NCBI GenBank assembly: GCA_951406725.2
Contig: OX597835.1
Coordinates: 25,978,001 to 26,042,000, forward strand
From: Octopus vulgaris
Lineage: Eukaryota
Direction of reading: 5' to 3'
Length of the DNA stretch: 64,000 bases
A program made the translations under genes and the position numbers. Below the pieces are notes generated by a model, which ran no database searches, was not told where the DNA came from, and saw nothing but the letters and a program-made list of their open reading frames with translations. Numbering within the stretch: position 1 is the stretch's first letter; each line of letters opens with the position of its first letter. Of the stretch, positions 4,226 through 61,925 are shown piece by piece.

Positions 4226-4747
4226 ATAGATAAATGAAAGAATAGAGTCGAACGACGATTTAACAAAATTCCTTTATTGTCGACACATGTTTCGAAGACT
4301 GCATATTCTTAATTCCGAAGGAATAAAGGGTGCATTATGTCTTCTCATCAGGAAAGACAAGGAACTTATGTCAGCATCATGACGAACAAAAACTTTTAGA
4401 TGACTGCCCACACGGAGTCCATAGTGATAATATCATTGTTCGTCATGAAGCTGACATAAGTTCCTTGTCTTTCCTGATGAGAAGACGGCATAATGCACCC
4501 TTTATTCATTCGGAATTAAGAATATGTAGTCTTCGAAACATGTGTCGAGAATAAAGGAATTTTGTTAAATCGTCGTTCGACTCCATTCTTTCATTTATCT
4601 ATAGTAAAAAAACACACAAATTTCCACACGAAGGCACGTGATTTCTGCCCTTAGCATGTAGCTTCAACCGTGCTTTCTGACGTAAAATTGCTACCCGGGT
4701 ATCGGTTAACCGAATTATCCATACTAAGATAATTCATTCAACTACTT
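4226..4747 (+). mobile_element. (TA)n-flanked foldback element (arms 4226-4389 / 4436-4602 plus unique tail), PLE pLTR-like
   Basis: Near-perfect ~165-bp inverted repeat with a 46-bp spacer; each arm carries a hammerhead core. Confidence 0.8.
4459..4561 (+). ncRNA. Minimal type I hammerhead ribozyme motif
   Basis: CTGATGA 4474-4480; stem II GAAGAC/GTCTTC (4481-4486/4529-4534); GAAA 4535-4538; C-ATGT-G; TC 4545-4546. Stem I TTTC/GAGA plus TTCCTT/AAGGAA. Mirror copy on - strand at ~4268-4365. Confidence 0.75.
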
Positions 4748-6473
4748 ATATATATATATATATATATATATATATATATATATATATATATATATATATC
4801 CACATGTGTAAGAATATGTATGTATGTATATATGTATGTAGAAGTGTGTATGTATGTATGTACTGTGTATGAGTGTAAGAATGTGCATTTACTGGCATAC
4901 GGCTGGCCGAGGACGAAGCAACGGCAACAAGATCATGCTTCACTGCATTAACAGCACCGAGGTAGTGATAGTGACAGAATAGAAGATACGAACATCGGAC
5001 ACAACGGTTCGTAACTTTTAAGAAACAGAACATTTATCGATTCAATCCAATCCGACCACATACGAATCAAATATTTCTACATATGTTTACGTTATTAATA
5101 ATTCCTCTATCCCGTTGCAAATTGGGTGCGTTGTCCGATGTGGGCGTTAAATTTTGGACAAGGAGTTAAATCATTCTTCGTTTACATGAAACTATTAAAA
5201 AAAAAGAAACAAAACAAAAATCCCCCAAAACCCCAGAATAGCAGAATAAAAGATGAACGGATTATATATACATATTTAGTATTTTGCCTGTGATACAGAA
5301 ATCAATACTAACCTAAGATGGCGGATTGGGTGAGGTGAGATTTCTTATGGCGATATTCTTTAGGTTATTTTATAAATTATATTTTTGTTCTGTCTATAAA
5401 AAGGATGAAAATTATTGAAATTTCTTGAAAATGCAGTTTTTCCAAATTTTATTTCTCAATATTTAGTATTTTGTCTTTATTAACAAAATTTTTCTTTTTG
5501 GAGTTTTCGTGCATAGTTTGGGAATCTTTGCTTGTTTTTAAAAATGCTTCTTGAATAATGATTTTTTTTTTTTGGTAAATTTGTATTTTGAATCGTTCGT
5601 GGCTAAATGGAATCGGCAAATATTGTACAAAGATGATTTATTATACGAAAATAAGATAATTTATTGAATTACTTGTTGAGTAAAGCAACAACAAAAACAA
5701 AATGTCGAAAAAAAACAACAAACAAACAAAAAAACGTAAAGGAAAAAAATTTCAATTTTAATATTTATCAATGAATTAATGCTGCATGAAATAATGGCTG
5801 CAAATAACTAAATTTCTAAGTCTACCGAGTTGTATACATGCGCGTATATATACGCATTTATACAAGCATGTAAATACATAATACATCTGTCCATACAGGC
5901 TGATACATGCCTACAAACACATATACATATATTTATATATATAAATGTCACACAATCACGCATAAAAGGTGCAGATTTATCACACGTATATATACCCTCA
6001 CACATGTATAATATACGTATGCATTTGTGTACTGTATGTACATGATTATGTATGCATTATACACACACGCACACACACATACACATGCATAGATGCATGT
6101 GTGTATTTGTTGGAAAATAGTCAGTGGGTTCCCTGCATCATCAATAAGTAATCTAACGTCCTGCACACGGGATACCCAGGCTGATAATATGAATAACAGC
6201 GGAAAGTATTTCTGTATGCGCATATCGTCCATTGTCATCAACATATATATATATATATATATATATATATATATATATATATATATACATACATATGCAC
6301 ACTCATATATATATATATATATATATATATATATATATATATATATATATATATATAACACATATATATATAATATGTATATATAAACACGCATAGACTT
6401 ATAAAAAAGCTTACTTTTTCGTTAAGGAAAGATCAACGAAAATGTATTCTATCCGATGAGAGATAAATATTTC

Positions 6474-6674
6474 TTAATGTACACAGTAAATAGTTATGAG
6501 CTACTAATAGTTACATACATTGGAGATATTATCTAGACAGGTTTTAAAACACGTCTAGTGTCTTCAAGAGCCTAAAGATTACTGGGAGACAATCGGCGTG
6601 TTTGAAAATGCGCCTAGATGATATCTTCAATGTATGAAAATATTAGTAGCTCAACTGTAGACTGTGCACATTAA
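6474..6674. repeat. Diverged ~200-bp palindrome next to (TA)n
   Basis: TTAATGTACACAGT..GAGCTACTAATA..CATACATTGGAGATATTATCTAG versus CTAGATGATATCTTCAATGTATG..TATTAGTAGCTC..ACTGTGCACATTAA. Confidence 0.8.
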
Positions 6675-6805
6675 ACTATGTTTATATATATATGTGTATA
6701 TACATATCGATATATATATATATATATATATATATATATATATATATATATATATATATATATATATATATATATATATATATATATATATATAATATAT
6801 ATATA

Positions 6806-6978
6806 GTTAATCCAAACATGAAAACATAAAGAGAAAACACGACAACGCGAGGACGTGGAACAAGTATTGTGTTATTGGACGCTCAGGAAAGGAAAGAAAG
6901 AAGGAGGATTTAACGTTTCGAGCGGAGCTCTTGGTCAGAAACATAGGAAAAGGAAAGATCCAAGGTAGAGAAGACGAG
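6806..6978 (-). mobile_element. PLE pLTR-like 3' end with decayed minimal hammerhead (CTGACCA-GAGC/GCTC-GAAACGTTA)
   Basis: Same family as 37595-37800 and 43200-43285; abuts (TA)n at 6710-6805. Confidence 0.6.
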
Positions 6979-7130
6979 CGAAATGCTTAGCTGAAATTCC
7001 ACGGAGGTCGACTTTGCCTGTCATCCTTTCTGAGTCGTTATATTAAGTAGCAGTTGAACTCTAGGGGGTCAATGTTATCGACCCATTCCCTTCCCCGGAG
7101 TTGCTGGCCCTGGGCCAAAATTTGAAACCG
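6979..7130 (+). mobile_element. SINE family A, partial
   Basis: CGAAATGCTTAG..GAGGTCGACTTTGCCTGTCATCCTTTC. Confidence 0.7.
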
Positions 7131-59860: not shown

Positions 59861-60270
59861 AAGGCGGCGAGCTGGCAGAAACGTTAGCACGCTGGGTGAA
59901 ATGTTTAGCGGTATTTCGTCTGCCGTTACGTTGAGTTCAAATTCAGTCGAGGTCGACTTTGCCTTTCATCCTTCCGGGGTCGATAAATTAAGTACCAGTT
60001 ACGCACTGGGGTCGATATAATCGACTTGATCCGTTTGTCTGTCCTTGTTTGTCTCCTCTGTGTTTAGCCCCTTGTGGGTAGTAAAGAAATAGGTATTTCG
60101 CCTGCCGTTACGTTCTGGGTTCAAATTCCGCCCAGGTCGACTTTGCCTTTCATCCTTTCGGGTTCGATAAATTAAGTACCAGTTACGCACTGGGGTCGAT
60201 ATAATCGACTTGATCCGTTTGTCTGTCCTTGTTTGTCCCCTCTGTGTTTGTCCCCTTGTGGGCAATGAAA
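59861..60270 (+). mobile_element. SINE family A tandem dimer (second unit lacks the head)
   Basis: GGTATTTCG at 59910 and 60092 (182-bp period); units near-identical. Confidence 0.92.
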
Positions 60271-60455
60271 AAAGAAGAAATAAGGAAACTCTGTAGAAGA
60301 CAAACTACATATATGTATGCATGTGTACGCACACACACACAGATACACACACACATTATTAGATAATAAATTATATGGTATACACCTCGTAGCCTACCAG
60401 TAAAGCACGTTTACTTTCACAGGGATCTTTGGGTATTCCATTAATGAATCAGATG

Positions 60456-60577
60456 GAAGATGGGGGATACGAGAATGTATATCGATCTGTACAATTGTTC
60501 CGATCCATCTAACATTGATGTTAGAAGGATCGAAGCACTTGTACACATCAATACACATTCTCGTATCTTACATCTTC
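60456..60577. repeat. ~120-bp imperfect palindrome related to the 38055 foldback family
   Basis: GATACGAGAAT..ACAATTGTT..CATCTAACAT / ATGTTAGA..ATTCTCGTATC; left arm resembles 38071-38128. Confidence 0.7.
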
Positions 60578-61442
60578 AGTATCTCACATTAATCATATAT
60601 ATATATACATACATACATACATACATACATACATGCATAGACATTCATACATACATACATACGTATACATACATACATACATACATACATACATATATAT
60701 ATATATATATATATATATATATATATATATATATATATATATATATATATATATATATATATATATATATATATATATATATATATATATATATTATCAC
60801 ATATACATACATATATGAAACCTTCTCTCCCTGCTTACACAAGCAATATTCGACACTGAAATATTTCAAAGAAGAGCCACTATCCGCGACGGACGTTAAT
60901 CCCACCAGGATAACCCCTTTCGTAAACGTGAAATCTGAACATACATAGTTCACAATTTTCCCACACAGAAAAAATATGCGCCAATGATGAACTACTTCAA
61001 CACACAAGTTAACAACACCATGTTCAGAACAAAAACAAAAATCATGCAAACAAATTGACCGCACAACAACTTGCCCAGAACCAAATCCAAAGGAGGCATA
61101 CATCCAAGAGATACCACCCAAGAGTAACGTCCCTTGATTCATTGATTCATTGTTTTATTCACGTGAATTCACGGGAATCCCCGCGAACTAAGTGATGCTG
61201 TGTTTTCCAAAGTGGAGGCGAACACCTTTCTCCATGTGATTGGCTTGAAAATTTGTCAAATATGTTCCTACTTTTCTTAATATGAAATCAATGGTAACCT
61301 TAATTCACAAATAAAGGAACTATGTCCATCAATGCGGTGTGGATCCCTCATTTTCATCGTTCGACTTTTACGTATCAAAGCTTTCGATGTCAACACAGAC
61401 CGGTTAAGCACTGAAAACGAACAGAGAATCAAAACAAACTAT

Positions 61443-61925
61443 GAGATCGTCTTCAGCAGGAACACTTAGGGTTAAATATCTAAACACAAGGCAATCAAAC
61501 TGTGTGCCTCTTGTTTATACATCCTAATTTTTTCAAAATCTACTGCGCAGACGCAGCCCTTCGCTAGCAATAAAAAAATGCCAACTTTTAAAAAACCGAA
61601 AATTATCTAAAAACTTACAATATTTAATCATATCAAAGGGAAATCGAAATAAATAAAAAATTTTCATTTCCAGTGGTCTAACGCGTAAAAAATTTAGTCC
61701 AAAGACTATGTATCTCACCTAGCGAGTATATGTGATTTATTTACTTGCTAAACTAAAATCAGAAAACCAATTGGTCCAGGAAACTAGATGGTAAAATGTT
61801 TTTACTTATTCATTTCGTTCCTGTCGAATTTTATCCCTAATTTTTGTGGTTATAGAACCTAGCTGTTCTTTCTAGCGTATTTGAATCCCGCGAGTGGATT
61901 CCTCATGTTTTTAAATGTACACTGT
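61443..61925. mobile_element. Rearranged relative of the 51072 element
   Basis: 61443-61613 resembles the reverse complement of 51124-51296, while 61759-61925 matches 51333-51500 directly; ends in (TA)n. Confidence 0.7.

What the first reader, a model, noticed from the sequence alone, without database searches (positions are those of the whole stretch)
4226..61925. One architecture, several sequence families: (TA)n-associated foldback/hammerhead mini-elements across the window
Seen: elements at 4226, 38055, 50382, 51072 and 54667 share an inverted arm + arm + ~80-160-nt tail, then TA-rich repeat, although I see no shared primary sequence among them. In each, the arm covers GAAA-(short, mostly palindromic stem: CATGTG, CAATTG, CCAATTGG, CTTAGAAG)-TH. 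Palindromes at 6474 and 60456 look like decayed versions. Non-foldback solo ends at 6806, 14131, 17980 and 37595 have the same core with variants. That is about one per 6 kb. Inference: either a very diverse set of PLE insertion by-products, or non-autonomous ribozyme-bearing retroelements mobilised by PLE RTs such as the one at 62441.
Basis: partly seen in the sequence, partly recalled or inferred. Interest (0 to 1): 0.72.

Follow-up and report, generated by a model that had tools for sequence, protein, structure and literature searches.

The report
Penelope retroelement stubs in TA repeats
These hairpin-shaped inserts are short, individually different, head-to-head ends of several Penelope-type jumping genes, a published pattern, and their shapes suggest that the element's enzyme likely copies the front of its own RNA twice, once from each side of the cut chromosome.

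Summary
The foldbacks are real, but they are not a new mobile unit. Genome-wide copies share fixed outer ends and differ at the inner junction (18/18, 14/15 and 19/19 distinct for the families at 4233, 38055 and 50382). Longer copies of these three run into Penelope-like ORFs (reverse transcriptase and/or GIY-YIG) with Hydra-clade motifs. One complete copy shows that the 'tail' is the 5' leader. Inverted stub plus one-sided tail in (TA)n is published, and this scan has found it before on other DNA. What this window adds: (1) 20 of 20 classifiable foldbacks pair one tailed with one tail-less end; (2) both arms carry the same subfamily variants; (3) 5' ends pile up at an initiator-like TCATT in two families. 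These points favour two priming events that run off the RNA's 5' end (inferred). The family at 51072 is different: an ORF-less ~510-nt head-to-tail hammerhead-like unit with the same insertion signature, so non-autonomous and retrozyme-like. Tails are 65-150 nt against the published 30-40. Only 3 sites in the window meet a strict hammerhead descriptor. The RT at 62441 is Neptune-like and is not the parent of the foldbacks.

The parts
4233..4431 (-). E1 inverted, tail-less arm (parent coordinates -352 to -151, counted from the tail end); starts at the initiator-like TCATT; hammerhead core present, stem I weakened
4436..4595 (+). E1 direct arm (from -310) with intact minimal type I hammerhead: CTGATGA at 4474, predicted cleavage after 4546
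4596..4746 (+). E1 tail (~145-150 nt) = 5' leader of the parent element, ending about 55 nt before its ATG
   Evidence: full-length copy L320
6405..6685 (-). Older foldback; long arm on the minus strand with its tail at 6405-6462, short arm 6567-6685 on plus; a family copy runs into a decayed endonuclease C-terminus
   Evidence: (L222, E 1e-4, weak)
6806..6945 (-). Solo 3' end with minimal hammerhead-like motif; family mostly solos of about 200 nt starting at a TCATT motif; parent ORF not found
14065..14291 (+). Solo 3' end with decayed hammerhead; a family copy runs into an endonuclease C-terminus like that of the E1 parent
   Evidence: L358, E 4e-12
17980..18135 (+). Solo 3' end of the Neptune-like family at 62441; CTGTTGA-core hammerhead at 18015
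37585..38016 (-). Solo 3' end related to 6806, reaching upstream of the TCATT motif; hammerhead motif at 37706
38055..38598 (+). E2 foldback: inverted arm 38055-38205 (-75 to -228), direct arm from 38211 (-393), tail about 65-70 nt; family core CCGACGA; parent has a decayed GIY-YIG ORF
50382..50631 (+). E3 foldback: inverted arm 50382-50463 (-111 to -192), direct arm from 50460 (-178), tail about 105-110 nt; both arms cut inside the hammerhead; parent has RT plus GIY-YIG
51072..51506 (+). E4: 36-nt inverted piece (51072-51107) plus 394 nt (51113-51506) of an ORF-less ~510-nt head-to-tail unit with an atypical hammerhead-like motif; ends at the family's tail-less site
54603..54898 (-). E5 old foldback: tail-bearing arm on minus (54603-54754), short arm on plus (54763-54898); parent ORF not found
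54937..55050 (+). Tail fragment of a separate family, preceded by a 40-nt palindrome
60375..60580 (-). Foldback related to E2 (74%): long arm on minus with tail 60375-60455, short arm 60514-60580
61300..61923 (.). Head-to-head insert: plus arm 61743-61923 is an E4-family 3' end; minus arm (61713 to about 61300) is an E4-like leader followed by a different hammerhead-like end
62441..64000 (+). Neptune-like PLE ORF (RT; beyond the window a CX4CxxC linker, GIY-YIG with C/C/H/H, 3' UTR and pLTR); not the parent of E1-E5

Best explanation
The foldbacks are one-off, head-to-head insertions of the hammerhead-bearing ends of several Penelope-like retrotransposon families into TA repeats, each likely made when the element's reverse transcriptase was primed from both sides of the cut and copied the same region of its RNA twice. 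SHOWN: fixed outer ends, copy-specific inner junctions, mapping of E1-E3 to ORF-bearing parents, tail = 5' leader (E1), one tailed plus one tail-less end per foldback, shared subfamily variants between arms, and a pile-up of 5' ends at TCATT in two families. INFERRED: a pLTR promoter starts the RNA at that TCATT. The GIY-YIG nuclease cuts both strands in (TA)n. One end primes at the outer start site (with tail), the other at the inner site (without tail). Each cDNA stops early or runs off the RNA's 5' end, and the two are joined end to end. The family at 51072 is a non-autonomous ~510-nt unit that likely borrows this machinery from an unidentified partner. The hammerhead is likely a passenger of the pLTR and not needed to make the foldback.
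For: Tail-only queries, 30 loci each: foldbacks / distinct junction pairs were E1 18/18, E2 15/14, E3 19/19. Outer arm ends were fixed: -143 to -151 in 15 of 18, -64 to -75 in 11 of 15, -105 to -111 in 17 of 19. Even the 30 best whole-element matches to E1 differ at the junction, except one local duplication. Parents: L057 and L320 for E1, L070 for E2, L316/L305 for E3. L321 and L323 end at the tail-less site. Arm-only queries: after removing duplicate rows and the window copies, 12 of 12 (E1) and 8 of 8 (E3) classifiable foldbacks are long+short, while solos split 14 long to 15 short; independent choice would give about 0.5^20. The tail-less arm reaches further upstream than the tailed arm in 13 of 29 (E1), 11 of 23 (E3) and 4 of 10 (E2), which a cDNA hairpin cannot produce. 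Arms of one locus agree at diagnostic sites in 294 of 317 calls (shuffled mean 0.60) and 62 of 63 (0.63). E1 5' ends: 37 in -355..-326 against 4 in the 30 nt upstream and 10 downstream, of 92 arms; the edge lies at TCA(-352)TT, 28-29 nt after TTATAA, behind TGACGTCA, motifs kept in 10 of 10 long copies printed. In the 6806 family 16 of 25 copies start within -2..+8 of TCATT and 2 reach further upstream. In vitro, an anole PLE cuts and extends both strands and starts at two internal RNA sites that bound the tail, and hammerhead cleavage is not needed (PMC11167929).
Against: No transcription start, RNA end or cleavage product was observed; promoter and initiator are motif readings. E3 shows no such 5' edge and E2 only a weak cluster near -393. 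Two inserts carry a tail at both ends (L066; L292), and 5 foldbacks had one unclassifiable end. The E2 window copy shares its junction with one other locus (L073). Agreement between arms could also come from gene conversion or from one master being active at a time, so it does not prove a single RNA molecule. Samples are the top 30 of hundreds to thousands of candidates and lean to young copies; breakpoints are BLAST ends (about +/-5 nt). Pfam did not recognise RT or GIY-YIG in the E1 parent ORF; the assignment rests on motifs and a weak alignment to the 62441 RT (20% over 491 aa, E 2e-4). No parent ORF was found for E5 or the 6806 family, and no partner for E4.
Confidence: 0.8

Rival explanations
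1. The single arm (initiator to tail, about 200-350 nt) is itself a non-autonomous, SINE-like element transcribed from solo copies through an internal promoter. The pile-up of 5' ends then marks its full length, not run-off from the leader of a full-length transcript. Foldbacks are still one-off double insertions.
For: The 6806 family is almost all solos of near-constant length. Drosophila Penelope has an internal promoter (PMC2377424). E4 shows that ORF-less units spread in this genome.
Against: E1 stubs are 92-99% identical to the ORF-bearing copy L057, with no separate stub lineage evident. The TATA- and CRE-like motifs lie upstream of the edge and are missing from stubs. A tree of stubs against long copies was not built.
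Confidence: 0.25
2. The inverted arm arises by self-priming (fold-back of a cDNA or of an antisense RNA), as proposed for rotifer PLEs.
For: Arms share subfamily variants. 8 of 62 long+short foldbacks have near-equal arm lengths. Proposed in PMC3846280.
Against: In 28 of 62 foldbacks the tail-less arm holds upstream sequence absent from the tailed arm while lacking the tail itself. The inner outer-end site is also the 3' end of solos and of long copies.
Confidence: 0.12
3. The foldback is the mobile unit (MITE-like or retrozyme-like) and spreads whole.
For: At least 40 whole-length matches to E1. One shared junction in E2.
Against: Junctions are unique in 51 of 52 pairs for E1-E3. A junction-spanning E2 query found one matching locus among 40 scored of 1502 candidates. 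The shared site has a short AATA microhomology and lies at the weak -393 cluster.
Confidence: 0.03
4. The 5' pile-up is a reverse-transcriptase pause at RNA structure or a microhomology hot spot (ATTAT resembles the TA target), not the RNA's 5' end.
For: The E1 cluster spans about 30 nt. TA-like letters at the edge can shift BLAST ends by a few bases.
Against: The sharp upstream edge coincides with a TCATT motif in two unrelated families.
Confidence: 0.2

Closest known systems
Insertion units of endonuclease-bearing Penelope-like elements (PMC8557442 Fig. 2 legend; PMC3846280; passages read)
   Same: Adjacent inverted 5'-truncated copy, tail often at one end only, partial tandems, (TA)n bias. 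Dual minimal hammerheads 100-700 bp apart on opposite strands are noted in PMC4209133.
   Different: Tails here are 60-150 nt against 30-40 bp published. The strict long+short pairing, the arm-length test and the pile-up of 5' ends at an initiator-like motif were not in the passages read.
Hydra clade of C-terminal EN+ PLEs (PMC8557442 section 11 and File S1)
   Same: DKT motif, no CCHH, CxxC and CxH motifs, CxCX5C linker (E2, E3 parents), hammerhead, (TA)n insertion. File S1 already lists one cephalopod family, Hydra-1_Obim.
   Different: The E1 parent has RW(L) for RWK, lacks the CxCX5C linker, and has an Asn-rich insert. Identity with any listed family was not tested and no tree was built.
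Poseidon element of the green anole in vitro (PMC11167929, parts 1-2 of 4 read)
   Same: Two internal RT start sites bounding the tail; both strands cut and extended; AT-rich target; dimer predicted.
   Different: Its start sites lie inside the ORF and close together. Here the E1 tail is untranslated leader and the sites are about 145 nt apart. The main text read does not explain foldbacks or run-off at the RNA 5' end.
Non-LTR retrozymes (PMC7229834; bioRxiv 10.64898/2026.07.22.740005) and non-autonomous Chlamys such as MRC1 (PMC8557442); passages read
   Same: E4: no ORF, head-to-tail repeats, type I hammerhead-like motif, PLE origin proposed.
   Different: E4 unit is ~510 nt (published 150-450), with at most one full unit plus partial units seen. 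Its motif is minimal and atypical (extra A before GAAA). It carries the PLE inverted-arm and tail signature. Circular RNA was not shown.

Membership tests
EN+ Penelope-like elements (E1-E3 families) | Single ORF with RT and C-terminal GIY-YIG nuclease in long copies | tested here: met
   E1: 804- and 833-aa frames with DKT, YRDD and IYQC..YIG; E3: RT motifs plus VIYKC..YLG; E2: decayed nuclease. By motif and a weak alignment; Pfam was silent for E1.
EN+ Penelope-like elements (E1-E3 families) | pLTR formed by partial tandem, with adjacent inverted truncated copy | tested here: met
   L320: inverted arm, partial pLTR, leader, ORF, 3' UTR, pLTR, tail; shown in full for E1 only
EN+ Penelope-like elements (E1-E3 families) | Optional tail at one end | tested here: met
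   longer than the published 30-40 bp
EN+ Penelope-like elements (E1-E3 families) | Minimal type I hammerhead in the pLTR | tested here: met
   family alignments: CTGATGA cores in E1 and E3, CCGACGA in E2; cleavage activity not tested
Hydra clade | DKT in place of DKG; CCHH absent; CxxC and CxH near the nuclease end | tested here: met
   E1 parent, against the list
Hydra clade | CxCX5C linker and RWK motif | tested here: inconclusive
   linker present in E3 (CNCRIKSKC) and, with a stop, in E2; absent in E1, which has RWL
Hydra clade | Phylogenetic placement with reference Hydra RTs | not tested
   no reference sequences were loaded
Non-LTR retrozymes (E4) | No coding capacity; head-to-tail repeats with a type I hammerhead | tested here: met
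   no ATG ORF over 40 aa on the sense strand; 0 of 30 tail-selected loci run on past the tail; head-to-tail joins; motif atypical
Non-LTR retrozymes (E4) | Canonical hammerhead with tertiary loop contacts; unit 150-450 bp | tested here: not met
   unit ~510 nt; stem II has unpaired A on both sides; fails the strict descriptor
Non-LTR retrozymes (E4) | Abundant circular RNA after self-cleavage | not testable with these tools
   only contigs of runs guessed to be RNA were offered
MITE | Terminal inverted repeats at both ends and a constant interior | tested here: not met
   tail extends beyond one arm; interior differs among copies
MITE | Target site duplication | tested here: inconclusive
   flanks are (TA)n on both sides, so a duplication cannot be read

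The most novel reading that the evidence does not exclude
Penelope-like RTs make pseudo-LTR stubs as run-off copies of the transcript's own 5' leader. An asymmetric enzyme pair uses the outer start site on one side of the break and the inner site on the other, and both stop at the capped 5' end, much like strong-stop DNA. This would explain the stereotyped 200-550-bp foldbacks and solos and offer a route to pLTR regeneration. The ORF-less ~510-nt E4 unit, inserted with the same two-ended signature, would be direct genomic evidence that retrozyme-like RNAs are mobilised by PLE enzymes.
Probability: 0.45. Interest if true: 0.62.

Novelty: new member of a known kind. Interest (0 to 1): 0.4.

Why it matters
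As an element class this is ordinary. It matters as a natural data set on an open mechanism. [quoted passage not shown] Thousands of short inserts in this genome record start and stop sites. They give three testable rules: one long plus one short start per insert, arms from the same source lineage, and stops at the predicted transcription start. E4 offers a small substrate for testing whether a PLE enzyme mobilises a non-coding hammerhead RNA in trans. For annotation, such hairpins can be mistaken for MITEs or microRNA precursors: the 50382 hairpin scores 61 bits against mir-5014, below its threshold of 101.

Tried and rejected
Rfam scan: the 150 rows shown of 351 are almost all sub-threshold microRNA matches to simple repeats and hairpins; none is a hammerhead family. 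The repeat finder was swamped by (TA)n; masked self-BLAST replaced it. First guess that the E1 parent was a Naiad (recalled motifs): rejected, the nuclease is C-terminal. First impression that E1 spreads as a unit (40 whole-length hits): rejected on the junction alignment. First impression that E3 has no ORF upstream: wrong, the reference copy held an inverted piece. Search for an autonomous partner of E4: a different sequence upstream of one copy (L142) had no family; tblastn of two parent proteins over 85 E4 loci gave pieces in 4 loci (two of them overlapping) not joined to the unit. A possible cluster of E4 5' ends near the cleavage site (about -141 to -147) was noticed, not tested, and is partly set by the query. 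RNA: no RNA holder listed; contigs of four runs guessed to be RNA cover the E4 stretch but cannot show ends or circles. PDB search with the E1 ORF: nothing relevant. Single-strand folding of six motifs: no z-score beyond -0.9, and several minimum-energy folds are not the hammerhead fold. Junction microhomology was seen as overlaps of 1-7 nt but not tested against chance. Paper searches listed no paper on twin priming or strong-stop DNA in PLEs; most subscription journals are outside the library. 'Octopus' and 'cephalopod' as search words were a guess from recalled SINE motifs; the host was not tested. Craig's supplement was searched for words only; its sequences may include some of these families. 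The bioRxiv supplement was not seen.
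Full report
OBSERVATION. The window lies in a 2.8-Gb genome rich in microsatellites. Masked self-BLAST confirms local inverted repeats at 4233, 6463, 38055, 50382, 51072 and 60456 with E-values from 5e-131 to 2e-9. 54667 is a foldback only by mapping to its family. Corrections to tails, orientations and relatedness are given under the observation check. 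A strict minimal-hammerhead descriptor finds 3 sites in the window against 0 in each of 40 shuffles. Family alignments show conserved cores where the window copies are damaged or cut: CTGATGA in E1 (4233) and E3 (50382), CCGACGA in E2 (38055), a decayed core of similar form in E5 (54667), and C(C/T)GAAGA with an extra A before GAAA in E4 (51072).

DO FOLDBACKS SPREAD AS UNITS? No. The whole E1 element finds at least 40 full-length matches among 3299 candidates, all 30 fetched lying between TA-rich runs with identical outer ends. Their central junctions all differ, except one local duplication (L006/L009). To avoid selecting for the foldback I queried with tails only and fetched 30 loci per family. 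Foldbacks and distinct junction pairs were E1 18/18, E2 15/14, E3 19/19 and E4 12/12, the last including mirrored rows of the same loci. The rest were solos or long copies. The one shared junction is between the E2 window copy and L073 (81% identical, at an AATA microhomology). A junction-spanning query found only that locus among 40 scored of 1502 candidates.

WHAT ARE THEY ENDS OF? Long E1 copies run into an ORF ending in a GIY-YIG-like domain. A protein search with that domain gave 150 scored matches at 78-100% identity among 17,011 candidates. L320 is complete: (TA)n, inverted arm (-143 to -265), partial pLTR (-239 to +4), leader, an 804-aa frame, 3' UTR, pLTR and tail. So the tail is the element's 5' leader. 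L321 and L323 end at -143, without a tail. The ORF has DKT, YRDD, no CCHH, CxxC and CxH, as listed for the Hydra clade (PMC8557442 section 11). Pfam did not recognise it, and it aligns weakly to the window's other RT. E3 leads through about 1.5 kb of non-coding sequence to RT and GIY-YIG with a CxCX5C linker. E2 leads to a decayed ORF of the same type, and the 14131 and 6474 families to nuclease ends. The element at 62441 continues beyond the window into a Neptune-type linker, GIY-YIG and a pLTR that matches 17987-18198 at 74%. No parent ORF was found for E5 or for the 6806/37595 family.

E4 IS DIFFERENT. Copies chosen by the 3' end that reach far upstream join the 3' end of another unit after about 510 nt (5 of 30 loci). 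All 30 junction-selected loci show this join, with at most one full unit plus partial ones. None of 30 tail-selected loci runs on past the ~125-nt tail, and the sense strand has no ATG ORF over 40 aa. The inserts nonetheless have (TA)n flanks, truncated 5' ends, inverted arms and two alternative 3' ends. This is a non-autonomous PLE-derived unit. It works like a retrozyme or like the non-autonomous Chlamys elements, but it fails the size and canonical-ribozyme features, and circles could not be tested.

MECHANISM. Four results bear on it. (1) Arm-only queries do not select for tails. After removing duplicate rows and the window copies, 12 of 12 E1 and 8 of 8 E3 classifiable foldbacks have one tailed and one tail-less end; 5 others had an unclassifiable end; solos split 14 to 15. 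Two double-tailed inserts were seen in other samples (L066, L292). (2) The tail-less arm reaches more than 5 nt further upstream in 28 of 62 such foldbacks, the tailed arm in 26, and 8 tie; E1 arm lengths are uncorrelated (rho 0.06), with weak positive trends in E3 and E2. A hairpin copy of one cDNA cannot supply both the tail and the extra upstream sequence, so two readings of the template are needed. (3) Paired arms agree at diagnostic sites far above shuffled pairs: 294 of 317 in 44 of 61 E1 folds, and 62 of 63 in 16 of 31 E3 folds, the others overlapping by less than 60 nt. Both readings therefore come from the same source lineage; gene conversion is not excluded. (4) Of 92 E1 arms from 59 loci, 37 start in -355..-326, 4 in the 30 nt upstream and 10 in the 30 nt downstream. 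The edge is at TCA(-352)TT, behind TTATAA (-381) and TGACGTCA (-393). In the unrelated 6806 family 16 of 25 copies start within -2..+8 of a TCATT. E3 shows no edge. The labels initiator, TATA and CRE are recalled consensus motifs, not tool results. Together with the in vitro finding of two internal start sites and extension of both cut strands (PMC11167929), the simplest reading is double priming across the break, with cDNAs that stop at or before the RNA's 5' end and are then joined. Cutting, priming, promoter use and joining are inferred.

COMPARISON WITH WHAT IS KNOWN. The layout is published for EN+ PLEs (PMC8557442, PMC3846280, PMC4209133; passages), and a cephalopod Hydra family is already listed. 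Earlier notes of this scan describe the same pattern here and in other genomes, including the short-plus-long pairing. The pile-up at an initiator-like motif was in neither my word search of those notes nor the papers listed by my searches. What I saw of each paper: PMC11167929 parts 1-2 of 4; PMC8557442 passages, section 11 and word searches in its supplement; bioRxiv 10.64898/2026.07.22.740005 part 1 of 5 and passages; PMC3846280, PMC4209133, PMC7229834 and PMC2377424 passages only.

VERDICT. New members of a known kind: identity as PLE insertion products about 0.92; double priming about 0.75; run-off at the transcription start about 0.55; E4 non-autonomous about 0.8. Interest 0.40.

Noticed in passing
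window 61300-61923: Head-to-head insert whose two arms are not the same sequence: one is an E4-family 3' end, the other an E4-like leader (72%) that continues into a different hammerhead-like end (CTGAAGA...GAAAGCTT). Possibly a sister non-autonomous family or a two-template event.
   Followed up: partly
L061:1873-3174, L321, L316: The E1 and E3 parent ORFs carry long Asn-rich stretches between RT thumb and nuclease; Asn-rich inserts are described for rotifer PLEs (PMC3846280).
   Followed up: no
genome-wide: The E1-type nuclease domain has 17,011 first-look candidates, and all 150 scored are at least 78% identical; several sit in open frames of 700-880 aa. Hydra-like PLEs are very abundant in this genome.
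   Followed up: partly
window 35107-36401: Mariner-like transposon with 38-bp inverted ends (95%) and a split transposase ORF (Pfam Transposase_1, E 1e-23).
   Followed up: no
window 27834-31000 (minus); also 9195-9726, 33678-34210, 43468-44705: A non-LTR retrotransposon with a broken RT ORF (Pfam RVT_1, E 2e-27) and (TAA)n-linked 3' ends; four 91-97% identical 3' fragments in the window.
   Followed up: no
window 46884-47631 (minus): Decayed nuclease-end fragment of the same Neptune-like family as 62441 (72%).
   Followed up: no
window 19940-20302: GC-rich 13-bp tandem repeat (CCGTGGAGGCGTA, about 28 copies) lying in an open frame, unlike the AT-rich microsatellites around it.
   Followed up: no
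window 54896-54935: A 40-nt near-perfect palindrome sits between the E5 short arm and the tail fragment of another family.
   Followed up: no
E2, E4, E5 and 6806 families: Several families have a CCGANGA core (U4C); CpG decay turns it into the canonical-looking CTGATGA, so core variants in old copies may reflect mutation bias.
   Followed up: partly
   Followed up: no
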